Shown here piece by piece: positions 1-6,000 of a DNA stretch of 64,000 nucleotides. The stretch comes from Gekko japonicus (taxonomy: Eukaryota). The DNA is taken from assembly GCF_001447785.1 (NCBI RefSeq), contig NW_015174851.1, positions 777,604-841,603 of the forward strand. The letters run 5' to 3'. The number at the start of each line of letters is the position of its first letter. Position 1 is the first letter of the stretch. A program made the position numbers.

Positions 1-3000
1 ATAAGGATCAGTCAGGCATACAAGGTGTAGGGGTTAGTACCTCCAGTAGGGGTCACAGGGCACTCTATGGGGGGCAGTCACATCGGCGGCATATAGGGCC
101 TTGCCATCCCTAGAAGTCACTTGTAAGGTGGTGACATGGAAATTTGTCCATTCCTTTACAAAGTACTATAGGATTGACAAACTAGCCTTGGCAGAAGCAG
201 CATTTGACAGTAGAATGCTCCTTCAGGCCCTGTAGGCACCGGAAGTTGTGTGACCCACCCAGGGGGAGCACTGCTTTTTTACATCCCAGGAGTAAGGAGT
301 CAAGGACTGCCCCACTCCTGGACCACCGGAGAATGGAAGATTTGTATTCACTTACCATGAAGCTTCCTTCTTGGTGGTCCAGAGTTGGGCAGTCCTACCC
401 TCTCTTGATGGACACAACTTCCGGTCCTTTGTCCTTTACGTTTTGCAGTGGTTCAGCTGTTCATGAATATGGTCTAACTGATTACGTGATGTGGTGGACT
501 GTTGCTGTTTATTTGCTGTAATGGTTAAAATACAGGTTTGTATTTGTTTAAGCCCATGGCTGTGATGGTATTCCCCAGTTGTCTGAGGGGGAAGGAGTTA
601 TTTTTAAGTGGATTTACAGAAGCTTGGAGGTGGCTTTTGGTATGACTGGGGATCAGAGGATAAGCCCCTCCCCTCTGGGATCAAAGTTTGCTGGCCCTGC
701 CTACAGAAGGGGGAGGTGCTTTCCCAGGAGTAAGGAGTCAAGGACTGCCCCACTGTGGACCACTGAGAAGGAAGCTTCACGGTAAGTGAATACAAATCTT
801 CCATTTTGTTTCAGCAACAATAGCCAGATTCTGACAATATCACCCACACGTTCTCCTTTGCCGCTAAAGCAGTGAAGCTGTTATGATTTTTATTTGTTGC
901 CTCTTCCCTACTTTTCTCTCATTACAAGTAAAGAGGTTTGGGAAATATAAATATAAATTTAGATTATAGGGGTATTAGAAGTTGAAAAGACTAAAATTAT
1001 GGATAAAAACACAGGAGCAAGACGATTATCTATATCAAACCCCTCAGGTATACCACAAATGAATTCAAAAGAGCTACAAAATTTGATTCAAGAATCAATG
1101 TTGGGTATAATTAATACAGCCATGGACACAGCAGTAGCCAAAGCGATACAACCATTACAAAAAAAAACTTGAAGAACTATCTAAGCTAGATGATATTTCA
1201 AATCGATTGATGATACAGACAGAGGAGATTAAAAAACAACTGGCTGAAAACAAGCAAGAGATAGCATCTTTAGTAAATATGACAAATAAATTGGAATTGA
1301 AAGTGGGAACTACGGAGGAGAAATTACAGGAGGTGGAAAATAAACAAGAATCCCTAGAAGAGGTGGTTATTAGATTGGAAATGGAAAAAGCGTCATATAT
1401 TCTTAGACTACAAAATTTACCAGAAAAAAAGATGAAGATTTAAAACAAGAAATAAGCCAGGCGTTAGCTGAATTCTTAGAGATAGAGTCGAGTGGAGAAA
1501 TAGAGACCAATATAGAGGCAGTTTATAGAGTTAATTCTGCCTATGCAAGACAAAACAAAGTTCCCAGGGAAATTCAAATAAAGTTTATAAGGAGAGACCA
1601 AAAAGATAAGATATTGTGAATGTCAAATGAAAAGACCCTCAAAATAAATGAAACACAAGTTAAAATCCTACGGGAGATACCATGGAGGGTCAGGGAAAAG
1701 AGATTGGAATACTCCATTCTGGTTGACCTCTTAAAAAGTCAGAACATCCAGTACAGGTGGCTGGTCCCAGAGGGTATCTTTTTTATTTATAAAGGTAAAA
1801 GATTTAGGATAAACTCAATATTTAAGTTAGAAGACTTTTTGGGAAAATATGGAAAGGATCTGGGCTGGCTAGAAGAATAAGAGGACTCCACAGAGTCAGA
1901 GGATGAATCTCAGAAACAAGAGGAGGCAGGTAGTAATAAAGAGGAAAAAGAAGGGGGAAAAAAGAGAAGTAGAAAGGGTCACAGAAAACAAGACAAAGAT
2001 GAGTAGTCAGGGGATAAAAATAATCTCTATTAATATAAATGGATTAAATTCACCGCAAAAGAGATCTAGAACCTATTTACAATTAAAAAAACAAAATGCA
2101 GATATAATCTGCATCCAGGAGACACACATTAAAAAAGATGATGCTCATTTATTAGAAAATAAAAAACTAGAAAAACTTTTTATGGCAGCAGACGCTACAA
2201 AGAAAAAAAAAGGGGTAGCTATATATGTTAAAGAAAAACTACAACCAGAGCTATTATTTGAGTCTGAAGATGGTAGAATGGTTATGATTCAAATATATAG
2301 ACAAAATAAATCGGTTCTAATTGCTAATATATACGCTCCAAACCAAAATCCAGAAAAGTTTTTCAGACAATTAAGAGAAGTATTGGTGAAACAAATGTGC
2401 AATGAAATCTGTATTGTAGGTGACTTTAATGCAGTATATGATAGGTTAATGGATAGGAAATACTCGGACAAGAAACAGAAACAAGGAAATGAACTGCCTA
2501 AAGCCTTCTTACAAACAATAGAAGAATTCAAACTTGTAGATGCGTGGAGAACCCAGAATATAGATAAAAAGGATTTTACTTATTACTCAAGTAGACACAG
2601 ATCGTGGTCTAGGTTGGACATGATGTGGGTCTCCGCAGAAATGATAAATGACGTGAAAGAGATTGAAATTTTGCCAGCAACTTACGCTGATCATAACCCT
2701 ATTGTATGTACTTTGACAGATGTAATAAAAAAAAGAAGATGGACCTTAAATACGTGGTTATTAAAAGATAAAAAATTTCTATTGGAATCCAAAAAGGCAT
2801 TTAAGATGTTTTTTAAAGAGAATATGACAGCAGAGGTAGCTATAGAAACTATATGGGATACATTCAAGGCATACTCAAGGGGATGGTTTATAAGGCAAAA
2901 TGCATGGAAGAAAAAACAAAAGGATAGGGAATTGAATTTGATAAAGGAAAATATAAAGGCAGAAGAAAAGGAAATGAAGAGAGCAAAGGATAATTTACAA

Positions 3001-6000
3001 GAAATTAAAAATAAAATTAATCAACTTCAGCACCATCTAAACTGTATTCTAGCTCAAGAAGTTGCAACAAAAATAAAATTCACAAGACAACGATATTTCG
3101 AGCAAGCTAATAAGCCAACTAGGTGGTTGGCGTATAAACTAAGACAGGAAAGAGAAAAGAAAACAATAAAAAGTTTAAAAGATGAGAAAGGACAGGAAAA
3201 ATTTCTTTTAAAAGATCTGAAAGAGGTCGTGGAAAACTTCTATGAGAAATTATATAGAAGAGATGATGTTAACTTAGAGGATGTAAGAAGCTATCTTGAT
3301 AAATACTTAGAAGGAAAGTTTACGGATGATCAAAGGAGGGATTTAAATGAGCGAGTAACTATGTGCAAAATTACAGAGGCGATAAGAAACCAAAATAATA
3401 ATAAAATGCCAGGTCCAGATGGAATTCCTATAGAGTTTTATAAGGCTTTTGAGGAGGAAATAGCAATACCGTTACAAAAGGTAATTAATAACATCTCGGG
3501 TGAGGGACAAATCCCAAGTTCATGGAGAGAAGCTCAAATTACCCTAATACACAAACAGGACACAGAAAGAAATGAAATACGCAATTATAGGCCCATATCA
3601 TTACTTAATGTCGATTATAAGATCTATGCATATATATTAGCGGCTAGGCTTAAGAGGGTCCTTCGACATACCATACATAAAGACCAAGCAGGTTTTTTGC
3701 CGAAGAAGCAGATTCAAGATAATACAAGAATAATTTTAAATGTTTTAGAATTCTATGAACAACATCCGGAAAAAACCATGGCCTTGATATTTGTTGATGC
3801 AGAGAAAGCATTCGACAATATTAGTTGGAGTTTTATATTAGAAAAATTAAAATATTGGGATTGTGGAGAAATTTTTTTGAAAATGGTAAGAAAAATATAT
3901 GAAAGACAAACAGCCAAAATAACAATAAATGGCAATTTAACAAATAATATTGAAATTCAAAAGGGCACCCGCCAGGGTTGCCCATTGTCACCACTTCTAT
4001 ACATTTTTGCTATAGAAATTCTGCTAACACGTATTAGACAGGACAATGAAATGAAGGGTTTAGAGATAAAAGGGGAAAATTATAAAGTACAGGCCTTCGC
4101 CGACGATATGACTTTTATTTTGGAAGAGCCTCAAAGTTCGCTGGATAAATTAGTTCTGAACCTAAAAGAATATGGTGAAGTCGCAGGATTAATAATTAAT
4201 AAAAAGAAAACAAAGATCTTATTAAAAAATGCCAGAGGAAATACAGAAAAGCAACTCCAGGACCTTTCAGGCTTTGCAATTCAAAAGAAGGTAAAATATT
4301 TAGGTATAGTCTTGACAAATAGGTGCTGCTCACTGTATAAGGATAATTATGAAAAATTACTTTCAGAAGTAAAGAAAGATTCAGAATTATGGAGAGGTTT
4401 ACATATCTCACTGATGGGGAAAGTCTCAACAATAAAAATGAATGTCTTACCCCGCATTCTCTTTCTATTCCAAACTATTCCAATATTAAAAAATCAAATC
4501 TTCTTTAAAAAATTGGAGAAACTAGTAAAGGACTTTATATGGCAACAAAAAAGGCCAAGAATAAAGCTAAAATATTTACAAGAAAGTAAATTAAGAGGTG
4601 GTTTAGCTCTCCCAGACTGGGCATTATATTATAGAGCGATGGCTATGAATTGGCTGCGGGACTGGATAGTACAAGATGACAAGAGAGTCTTGAGTCTTGA
4701 GGGGCATGACATACCGAGGGGGTGGCACTTTTATATGTGGTACAATAAAAACAGACCTGCCACTCTTTTTAAACAACATACTATCAGAGCGGCGTTATTT
4801 AAAATCTGGGAGGAGATTAAAGCAAAATACTATACAAAACTACCTAGGTGGATTTCACCCATAGAAGCACTACAATTACCCTCCTTATACATTAAATATT
4901 CAAAATGGAGATATGATGATCTTTTAGACTCAAAGGGAGAGCTGGCTTCGGAGAAATGGCTTGAAGAAAAGGGTACAAAGATGACTTGGTGGGAAAAAAA
5001 CCAACTAATATCAAGGTGGACAAAGGATAAACAAGTGGGCATTTATAATAGTCAGACTGATTTAGACAAGATATGGTTAAATACTAAAGAGAAATTTATC
5101 AAAGGAATGTATAATTTCTGGTTGGAGTTGAAAATGGAAGATGAACAGATAAAGCCATCTATGATAGCATGGATGCAGGATTGGGGATATAATTTGAGTG
5201 TTGAACAATGGGAAAAAGTGTGGTCAAGAAATATAAAATTTGTAAGAACAAGTGCCTTCAAAGAAAACATTATAAAGATGTTTTATAGATGGCATATTTC
5301 GCCGGCTAGGTTGAATAAATTCAATAAGAAAATAGGGGGAAAGTGTTGGAAGTGTAAATTATGTACTGGTACCTTCTACCATATGTGGTGGCTCTGTTCT
5401 AAATCAAAGAGATATTGGGCCATGGTGAAAGGAATTATAGATAAAATGTTGGGGAAAGATTTCCCTTTGAAACCTGAGTGTTGTTTGTTAAATGTATTAC
5501 CCGATTCATATAAAGAAAAAGAGTTGTATTTAATTATGCAAATACTAACCGCAGCAAGGATTGTATTCGCAAAAAGATGGAAAGAGGAATGTATTCCTTC
5601 TATGGACAAGATTGTAAGTAAATTATTCTATATTGCAGAAATGGAGAAACTAACCTATATTGTTGAAGAAAGAAATATGGAAAAGTATGACAAGTATTGG
5701 AAAAATTTTTATGTTTGGGTAAAACAGGATGGGTGTAAATTAACGTAATCATATTATCTTGTGCCTAAGTTGGATTTATTTAAGTTTTTCTTATGATGGA
5801 AGATCTCTGTAAATATGTGTATTTGGTGGTGTGTTAGTTTATCTCACTTTAGTGAGGTATAGTTGTTAAAACTTAATAAACAGATTATTTTTTTTAAAAA
5901 AAGGAAAATGCTGACCTTTGGAGATTTCAAGCCTTGCATGTGAGATTCAGCATAACTTAAATTTTAAATCCTAAACAGAGTGAAACCCTTCTAATTCCAC

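What the first reader, a model, noticed from the sequence alone, without database searches (positions are those of the whole stretch)
999..5748. L1 with a pristine 3.75-kb ORF2 but at least five disabling lesions in the 1-kb ORF1
Seen: ORF1 has three frameshifts and two premature stops; ORF2 has none and keeps the endonuclease, FADD and CCHC residues. If lesions fell uniformly after insertion, all five landing in ORF1 has probability about (1/4.75)^5, or ~4e-4. Inference: ORF1 decayed in the source lineage while ORF2 stayed under selection, giving an ORF1-independent or trans-complemented L1 lineage; alternatively this locus's ORF2 is host-maintained.
Basis: partly seen in the sequence, partly recalled or inferred. 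Interest (0 to 1): 0.7.

Follow-up and report, generated by a model that had tools for sequence, protein, structure and literature searches.

The report
Lizard-type L1: open ORF2, broken ORF1
This is a copy of a lizard/gecko-type L1 jumping gene whose large second gene is still fully open while its small first gene carries four breaks. That lopsided pattern is already a catalogued kind of L1 copy, and whether it is chance or inheritance cannot be settled from this one copy.

Summary
The element is real. It is a squamate-type L1: ORF1 at 999-2006, ORF2 at 1999-5748, then AATAAA and a short A tail ending at 5902. ORF2 (1249 aa) is open, aligns end to end with human L1 ORF2p, and keeps the endonuclease, FADD and CCHC motifs.

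ORF1 has four lesions, not five or more:
- one base too many in the A9 run at 1159-1167;
- one base too few at the A7G run at 1424-1431;
- TGA at 1617;
- TAA at 1878, which cuts off only the C-terminal tail.

A third frameshift is not supported.

The chance that all four lesions fall in ORF1 is about 0.002-0.003, not 4e-4. It rises to about 0.04 if the two A-run shifts are sequencing or assembly errors. Both shifts sit in the only two homopolymers of 7 nt or more in ORF1.

No other copy of this family was reachable. The nearest ORF1p is a Gekko japonicus protein at 66-71% identity; the nearest ORF2p is at 40-42%. So shared lesions and dN/dS could not be tested.

"Intact ORF2, disrupted ORF1" is a catalogued L1 class (ORF2-L1s in L1Base).

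The best reading is an ordinary dead copy. Inheritance from an ORF1-defective source remains a live rival.

The parts
999..2006 (+). ORF1 remnant (ancestral extent, 335 codons plus stop). It has an N-terminal segment, a coiled coil, and an RRM-like plus CTD half.
   Evidence: Three-frame translation. tblastn with 9 homologues. The C-terminal half matches Gekko japonicus P0065 at 66-71% and human L1 ORF1p chains 2ldy/2ykp at E about 1e-5. Pfam Transposase_22 is below threshold (E=0.028).
1159..1167 (+). Lesion 1: A9 run with one base too many. The frame shifts, and the first stop in the old frame is TGA 1170-1172.
   Evidence: Homologues read through in one frame.
1424..1431 (+). Lesion 2: A7G with one base too few. 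This returns reading to the original frame; the stop in the shifted frame is TAA 1441-1443.
1617..1619 (+). Lesion 3: in-frame TGA inside the RRM-like/CTD half.
   Evidence: It lies opposite K in P0065 and T in P0067.
1878..1880 (+). Lesion 4: in-frame TAA that cuts off the last 41 codons (the acidic/basic tail).
   Evidence: Eight of 9 homologue HSPs continue past it.
2004..2006 (+). Ancestral ORF1 stop TAG, overlapping the ORF2 start (ATGAGTAG).
1999..5748 (+). ORF2, 1249 aa plus stop, uninterrupted. It holds an APE-type endonuclease, a reverse transcriptase and a C-terminal CCHC.
2026..2670 (+). Endonuclease domain (Pfam Exo_endo_phos, P0001 residues 52-266). It contains CIQETH 2110-2127, GDFN 2419-2430 and SRLD 2608-2619. 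The ADHN motif (2686-2697) lies just downstream of the Pfam match.
3547..4311 (+). Reverse-transcriptase domain (Pfam RVT_1, P0001 residues 559-813). It contains DAEKAFD 3796-3816 and FADD 4096-4107.
3367..3369 (+). AAA (K457 of ORF2) at a column where 29 of 31 homologues have E. This is the only mismatch among 39 columns that are at least 90% conserved.
5344..5397 (+). C-x2-C-x8-H-x4-C motif of the ORF2 C-terminus.
   Evidence: (same spacing in P0002).
5749..5902 (+). 3' UTR with AATAAA 5875-5880, a T8 run 5888-5895 and an A7 tail 5896-5902.
1..998 (+). Upstream region: either 5' UTR or flank, boundary not determined. GC is 0.43-0.53 over 1-800, against 0.33-0.38 in ORF1. It holds an imperfect palindrome at 238-425 and a partial second copy at 722-805.
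   Evidence: (no target-site duplication found).

Best explanation
This is a retrotranspositionally dead but ORF2-open copy of a squamate (gecko-like) L1-clade LINE. It belongs to the class that L1Base calls ORF2-L1.

Shown: ORF2 still encodes a complete endonuclease, reverse transcriptase and CCHC protein. ORF1 cannot give ORF1p because of two single-base length changes and two nonsense codons.

Inferred: the two length changes are slippage events at the only two long A runs of ORF1. They could have arisen at replication or during the transcription and reverse transcription that made the copy. The two stops are ordinary point mutations, and one of them is probably harmless because it lies in the tail. 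That none of these hit ORF2 is a tail event of about 0.2-0.3% per copy. A scan that reads many L1 copies and flags the lopsided ones will meet such events.

The copy cannot move on its own. If transcribed, it could still supply ORF2p, for example to SINEs.
For: Both frameshifts lie in the only two runs of 7 nt or more in ORF1; ORF2 has five such runs. Apart from the four lesions, ORF1 looks like a constrained ORF1p. It has 1 mismatch in 13 columns that are at least 80% conserved, and 8 in 41 columns that are at least 60% conserved. The median for 89 homologues is 1 and 9. There is no excess of window-specific changes against Gekko P0065: 8 versus 13, p=0.38. So the breakage is recent and light, as in a young decaying copy. 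Under steady insertion, a fraction 0.212^4 = 0.2% of ORF2-intact copies should carry four or more ORF1 lesions. Older cohorts give up to 0.5-2%. The class is common. In L1Base 2, Table 1 lists 146 fully intact and 107 ORF2-L1 copies for human, and 20/22, 19/24 and 20/21 for orangutan, chimp and macaque (PMC5210629, passages read).
Against: For one copy, p of about 0.002-0.003 is small. Two nonsense hits in ORF1 imply about 3% neutral divergence at the maximum-likelihood estimate. Under that divergence about 7.8 nonsense hits would be expected in ORF2, so P(0) is about 4e-4. The 95% interval is wide, reaching down to 0.4% divergence with P(0)=0.39. Squamate L1 families are small: Anolis has 20 families, for example 144 copies with 24 full-length in one of them (PMC3787681, passages). 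One genome therefore offers few trials. CpG observed/expected is lower in ORF1 (0.27, 8 CpG) than in ORF2 (0.48, 47 CpG). That could hint at longer decay of ORF1, or it could simply reflect the family's composition.
Confidence: 0.45

Rival explanations
1. The lesions were inherited. The copy descends from a source element whose ORF1 was already broken. That source was mobilised with its own ORF2p acting in cis and with ORF1p borrowed from intact L1s of the same or a sister family. Each retrotransposition round selects for a working ORF2 and not for ORF1. This could be one round or a short lineage, and it is the first reader's main inference.
For: It predicts exactly the observed skew, whereas chance gives about 0.002-0.003. 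ORF1 apart from the lesions is still well conserved, as expected if constraint was lost only recently. Squamate genomes carry many co-resident L1 families that could supply ORF1p (Anolis: 20 families; PMC3787681). In human cells, L1 RNAs with non-functional ORF1p still give ORF2p and can be retrotransposed by ORF1p supplied in trans (PMC5860796, passages). Secondary loss of ORF1 is documented in CR1 and L2 lineages (PMC13343379, passages).
Against: There is no second copy to show sharing. The same paper calls such trans-complemented products rare and evolutionary dead ends. I know of no sustained ORF1-defective L1 lineage in print. My one search for such terms (70 papers, 20 listed, titles and abstracts seen) showed none for the L1 clade. 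The ancestral overlap of the ORF1 stop with the ORF2 start (ATGAGTAG) suggests coupled translation, which the early stops would disturb. Twelve ATGs intervene.
Confidence: 0.3
2. The two frameshifts are sequencing or assembly errors at homopolymers. The real copy would then have only two point stops, one of them in the dispensable tail, and the skew is unremarkable (p about 0.04, or about 0.2 if only TGA 1617 counts).
For: Both shifts are single-base length changes in the two longest A runs of ORF1. They are of opposite sign, so the frame returns.
Against: The five runs of 7 nt or more in ORF2, including an A9 and an A8, show no error. The window keeps G/C runs up to 12 nt, so there is no general homopolymer compression. 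Genuine slippage at A8 runs is a common mutation (established knowledge, not tested here). No reads were available.
Confidence: 0.1
3. The element is a mosaic. An older, decayed 5' part including ORF1 is joined to a younger ORF2, either by gene conversion from an active copy or by template switching or recombination between L1 RNAs.
For: It would explain the lesions stopping at the ORF1/ORF2 junction. CpG observed/expected is 0.27 in ORF1 against 0.48 in ORF2.
Against: No breakpoint can be shown without other copies. The conserved-column and relative-rate tests show no sign that ORF1 is much older. The CpG difference rests on 8 CpGs.
Confidence: 0.08
4. ORF2 at this locus is maintained by the host as a domesticated gene.
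For: Only the open 3.75-kb frame.
Against: All transposon hallmarks remain: ORF1 debris upstream, AATAAA and an A tail. The endonuclease, RT and CCHC residues needed for retrotransposition are all kept. No own start context is visible, and 12 upstream ATGs follow the first stop. One E to K change lies at a column that is 94% conserved.
Confidence: 0.02

Closest known systems
[quoted passage not shown]
   Same: The defining state is identical: ORF2 open, ORF1 disrupted, element otherwise full length at its 3' side. The suggested consequence is the same too: it may still drive SINEs.
   Different: L1Base covers mammals only. This copy is of a squamate L1 lineage. It carries four ORF1 lesions, more than the single lesion that suffices for that class.
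Squamate L1 families as described for Anolis carolinensis (20 families, low copy number, young copies; PMC3787681)
   Same: It is L1 clade, with ORF2 nearest to an Anolis reverse-transcriptase protein among named hits (P0003, 42% over 71%). ORF1p is nearest to Gekko japonicus P0065 (66-71%) and Phrynocephalus forsythii P0072 (49%). It is AT-rich and A-rich on the sense strand.
   Different: At 40-42% ORF2 identity it is not a member of any family represented in the protein collections searched. The family itself is uncatalogued there.
Trans-complemented ORF1-defective human L1 RNAs (5'UTR/ORF1 SpIREs; PMC5860796)
   Same: ORF1p is non-functional and ORF2p is still encoded. Mobilisation is possible only with ORF1p from another L1.
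   Different: SpIREs lose ORF1 sequence by splicing. Here ORF1 is full length and broken by point lesions. Nothing shows that this copy was made that way.
ORF1-lacking LINE lineages of the CR1 group (Rex1, Zenon, L2 clade B, secondary losses in CR1; PMC13343379), and HAL1, the ORF1-only half-L1 of mammals (recalled, no call)
   Same: They show that LINE lineages can persist with only one of the two ORFs.
   Different: They belong to different clades and have different ORF1 types. In those lineages ORF1 is absent from whole families, which is not shown here.

Membership tests
L1-clade non-LTR retrotransposon | ORF2 with an N-terminal APE-type endonuclease | tested here: met
   Pfam Exo_endo_phos E=1.9e-10. 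It matches the human L1 endonuclease 1vyb at E=2.8e-33. CIQETH, GDFN, SRLD and ADHN are present. Which of these residues are catalytic is recalled, not tested.
L1-clade non-LTR retrotransposon | Reverse transcriptase with the FADD active-site motif, collinear with L1 ORF2p over its full length | tested here: met
   RVT_1 E=9.7e-40. Residues 45-1263 align with 5-1235 of human ORF2p 8sxt, E=8.4e-179, far above the R2 proteins at about 1e-24. FADD lies at nt 4096-4107.
L1-clade non-LTR retrotransposon | Cysteine-rich CCHC motif at the ORF2 C-terminus | tested here: met
   C-x2-C-x8-H-x4-C at nt 5344-5397, with the same spacing as in homologue P0002.
L1-clade non-LTR retrotransposon | Type II ORF1p (coiled coil, RRM, CTD) | tested here: met
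   The C-terminal half matches human ORF1p chains 2ldy, 2ykp and 2yko at E=9e-6 to 2e-5. There are 318 ORF1p-like relatives at E<=1e-3. The middle segment gives coiled-coil-type Pfam matches below threshold. Transposase_22 scores only 15.2 bits against a cut-off of 22.4.
L1-clade non-LTR retrotransposon | Polyadenylation signal, A tail and target-site duplication | tested here: inconclusive
   AATAAA lies at 5875-5880 and an A7 tail at 5896-5902. No direct repeat of 9 nt or more is shared between 1-1000 and 5881-5960. The 5' end may lie upstream of the window.
ORF2-L1 class (L1Base 2) | ORF2 intact from start to stop | tested here: met
ORF2-L1 class (L1Base 2) | ORF1 disrupted | tested here: met
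   Two frameshifts and two stops relative to 9 homologues.
   No eukaryotic genome collection is available. No protein closer than 71% (ORF1) or 42% (ORF2) turned up. The genome-contig scan found no relative.
   It needs DNA of sister copies. The proxies have low power and show no asymmetry: ORF1 8 versus 13, ORF2 76 versus 68.
Host-domesticated L1 ORF2 | Orthologous, open and constrained at the same locus in other species, with transposon hallmarks lost | tested here: not met
   The hallmarks are retained. Orthology is not testable.

The most novel reading that the evidence does not exclude
The copy belongs to a young sub-lineage of a squamate L1 that has lost ORF1 function yet keeps amplifying. 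It would use its own ORF2p in cis and ORF1p borrowed from the many co-resident L1 families. That would make it a parasite of other L1s, caught at the start of ORF1 decay, before ORF1 is deleted.
Probability: 0.2. Interest if true: 0.6.

Novelty: new member of a known kind. Interest (0 to 1): 0.3.

Why it matters
If the lesions are private, this is one more dead L1 copy of a catalogued class. Its only value is as a representative of a squamate L1 family that is absent from the protein collections searched. If the lesions are shared by several copies, it would be the first L1-clade lineage shown to spread without its own ORF1p. That would bear on how strict cis preference is outside mammals, and on how ORF1-less LINE lineages (as in the CR1 group) arise. 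One BLAST of the source genome decides between the two.

Tried and rejected
- Third frameshift. It is not found; homologue HSPs tile ORF1 in three segments only.
- Programmed recoding of ORF1. Site 2 is A_AAA_AAG, in phase for a -1 slip that would give the homologue-like PEKKDEDL. Site 1 (AAA_AAA_A) would allow a +1 slip (reading; the slippery-site rule is recalled). I rejected this because any one-base change in an A run leaves such a site. Homologues also read in one frame, and TGA 1617 would still stop translation.
- Same-family copies. Three word-index searches, one exhaustive search and one genome-contig scan (18 pattern matches, none a relative) found nothing.
- Target-site duplication. 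None was found.
- Rfam over the whole window. There were 0 matches.
- Pfam on the four ORF1 pieces. Nothing reached the cut-off.
- Neutral-load proxies. These were conserved columns and relative-rate tests. The result is null and the power is low: single outgroups disagreed in ORF1, with 2 nominally significant one way and 1 the other.
- Sequencing technology guessed from homopolymer lengths. The longest A/T run is 10 nt and the longest G/C run is 12 nt, which is not informative.
- Frame breaks of the neighbouring Ty3/gypsy element as a gauge of homopolymer errors. The breaks are near runs of 5-7 nt at most, and the element is old and full of stops, so this is not informative.
- MAFFT --auto on ORF2 timed out. 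I repeated it with a faster setting.

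
Full report
**What is there.** Window 999-5902 (+) holds an L1-clade LINE. ORF2 is open stop-to-stop over 1873-5748. The ATG at 1999 corresponds to the start of human ORF2p, giving 1249 aa. Pfam finds the endonuclease and RVT_1 domains. The protein aligns without large gaps to human L1 ORF2p: residues 45-1263 against 5-1235, E=8.4e-179, compared with about 1e-24 for R2 proteins. The motifs CIQETH, GDFN, SRLD, ADHN, DAEKAFD, FADD and C-x2-C-x8-H-x4-C are all present. After the stop come about 150 nt of 3' UTR, AATAAA (5875-5880), a T8 run and an A7 tail.

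**Not human.** I do not take the window for human. The nearest named relatives are squamate. ORF1p matches Gekko japonicus P0065, annotated by its source as 'apolipoprotein A-IV-like', at 66-71%, and Phrynocephalus forsythii P0072 at 49%. ORF2 matches an Anolis carolinensis protein at 42%. The window also carries CR1-type and Ty3/gypsy elements. One run of 44 N lies about 30 kb downstream and was left alone. No spliced gene model was involved. The frame segments of ORF1 were searched separately by reference, and no joined ORF1 went to a search tool.

**The ORF1 lesions.** ORF1 starts at ATG 999, the first ATG after an in-frame stop at 960. I ran tblastn with nine full-length ORF1p homologues, chosen from the 150 listed of 318 hits.
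- All nine give a single HSP in the ORF1 frame from about 1413-1434 onwards. Each crosses TGA 1617.
- Eight of nine continue beyond TAA 1878, ending at 1937-1997.
- Eight of nine give an HSP in the +1-shifted frame between about 1141 and 1437.
- One (P0067) also gives a weak 24-aa HSP in the original frame at 1083-1154.

The frame path is therefore original, then shifted, then original. That is two frameshifts, not three.

The first shift sits in the A9 run 1159-1167, where there is one base too many; Gekko reads QKKLEEL straight through. The second sits at A7G 1424-1431, where there is one base too few; Gekko reads PEKKGEDL. The two stops are TGA 1617-1619 (opposite K or T in homologues) and TAA 1878-1880 (opposite E). 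Beyond the TAA the same frame stays open and recognisably homologous for 41 codons, to TAG 2004-2006. That TAG overlaps the ORF2 start in ATGAGTAG. So the TAA is a recent premature stop, but it removes only the acidic/basic tail behind the CTD.

That makes four lesions.

**Is it more than chance?** ORF1 makes up 0.212 of the coding length. A more realistic model gives about the same figure.
- The ORF1 share of nonsense-mutable targets is 0.205, which squared is 0.042. About 6.5% of random substitutions would be nonsense in either ORF.
- ORF1 holds 2 of the 7 homopolymers of 7 nt or more, and both are hit, while ORF2's A9, A8 and three 7-mers are untouched. That gives 0.048-0.082.
- The joint probability is 0.0020-0.0034.
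- If the A-run shifts are artefacts, only the factor 0.042 is left.

Seen from the other side, under steady insertion and uniform decay a fraction 0.212^k of ORF2-intact copies carries k or more ORF1 lesions. That is 21%, 4.5%, 0.95% and 0.2% for k = 1 to 4. A simulation of 134,349 ORF2-intact copies out of 4 million agrees. Older single cohorts reach 0.5-2%.

The state itself is a catalogued class. L1Base 2 lists 146 fully intact and 107 'ORF2-L1' copies in human, with similar ratios in other primates (PMC5210629, passages). Ivancevic et al. count any intact-ORF2 L1 as potentially active 'regardless of the state of ORF1' (PMC5203782, passages).

**How old is the damage?** I could not measure divergence from a family consensus, because no second copy of the family was reachable. 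The proxies are these:
- **ORF2 conserved columns.** At 39 columns conserved at 90% or more among 31 ORF2 homologues (31 of the 62 hits, kept for length 1150-1350 aa), the window differs once. That is E to K at residue 457. Homologues differ 0-5 times.
- **ORF1 conserved columns.** At 13 and 41 columns (conserved at 80% and 60% or more among 89 homologues of 260-420 aa, out of the 150 listed), the window differs 1 and 8 times. The homologue medians are 1 and 9.
- **Relative-rate counts.** ORF1 shows 8 window-specific against 13 Gekko-specific changes (p=0.38). Ten single outgroups gave mixed results. ORF2 shows 76 against 68 relative to P0002 (p=0.56). One of seven single outgroups was nominally significant.

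None of this shows long relaxation of ORF1 or decay of ORF2, but the power is low. Two nonsense codons in ORF1 imply about 3% neutral divergence at the maximum-likelihood estimate, with a 95% range of 0.4-11%. At the estimate, ORF2 should have about 7.8 stops. CpG observed/expected is 0.27 in ORF1, 0.48 in ORF2 and 0.20-0.24 in the bulk of the window. That is a hint, not a test.

**Explanations.** I put 0.45 on an ordinary dead ORF2-L1 copy. In that reading, two lesions are slippage at A-run hot spots and two are point stops, and the clean ORF2 is a tail event picked out by the scan.

I put 0.30 on inheritance from an ORF1-defective source mobilised with ORF1p supplied in trans. That is mechanistically possible: human L1 RNAs with dead ORF1p still yield ORF2p and can be trans-complemented, although rarely, and the authors call them dead ends (PMC5860796, passages). 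Squamates also offer many co-resident L1 families (PMC3787681).

The remaining weights are 0.10 on homopolymer error in the assembly, 0.08 on a mosaic of old ORF1 and young ORF2, and 0.02 on host maintenance. Programmed slippage as a way to read ORF1 was considered and rejected (see Tried and rejected).

**What stayed unchecked.** These were the other genomic copies, the raw reads, the 5' end and target-site duplication, orthologous loci and expression. Paper supplements were closed too. A supplementary table of PMC5203782 may hold counts of ORF2-only L1s per squamate genome.

**Verdict.** The thing is a new member (an uncatalogued squamate family) of a known kind (an ORF2-intact, ORF1-disrupted L1).

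Noticed in passing
window 238-425 and 722-805: An imperfect palindrome lies just upstream of the L1 ORF1 (arms 303-342 and 360-396; outer 14-nt arms 238-251 and 412-425). A second partial copy includes a 33-nt perfect direct repeat (284-316 = 722-754) and a 65-nt inverted match at 92% (332-396 against 741-805). It could be part of the L1 5' UTR or a small foldback element. There was no Rfam match.
   Followed up: partly
window 1999-2006: The ancestral ORF1 stop and the ORF2 start overlap (ATGAGTAG). That differs from the spacer of human L1 and suggests termination-reinitiation coupling in this family. The spacer comparison is recalled.
   Followed up: no
window 51913-56209 (+): A decayed Ty3/gypsy LTR retrotransposon. 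It has gag (Retrotrans_gag), RT, RNase H, integrase (H2C2 and rve) and a Tf2-1-type SH3 domain, spread over several frames with in-frame stops.
   Followed up: partly
window 33071-34324 (+); also 8607-9038 (+), 12104-12520 (-), 21648-22019 (+): A 417-codon open fragment of a different LINE reverse transcriptase, only 26% identical to the L1 ORF2 (RVT_1 E=5.6e-35). Three other fragments share its C-terminal motif, so several copies of one CR1-like family lie in the window. The family name is my reading, not a tool result.
   Followed up: partly
window 37781-38902 (-): A 373-codon open frame with a cysteine/histidine motif near its end. It looks like the C-terminal part of another LINE ORF2. There was no Pfam match.
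   Followed up: no
window 45941-46493 and 27699-28399: A 282-bp unit is repeated twice in tandem (86% match). Similar proline/tryptophan-rich open frames occur on both strands at about 27.7-28.4 kb. This is probably a SINE-like or satellite-like repeat family.
   Followed up: no
window 48001-50000: An AT-rich stretch (GC 0.33) with very strong purine skew (GC skew 0.50). It holds a 207-codon K/E-rich open frame at 48215-48838 with no Pfam match, and an 81-bp tandem duplication at 49078-49242.
   Followed up: no
window 5904-8000: CpG observed/expected is 0.58 (71 CpGs) directly downstream of the L1, against 0.20-0.24 in the rest of the window. This could be a CpG-island-like segment or a young repeat.
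   Followed up: no
whole window: The homopolymer spectrum is lopsided. The longest A/T run is 10 nt, with only five runs of 9 nt or more. There are thirteen G/C runs of 9-12 nt.
   Followed up: no
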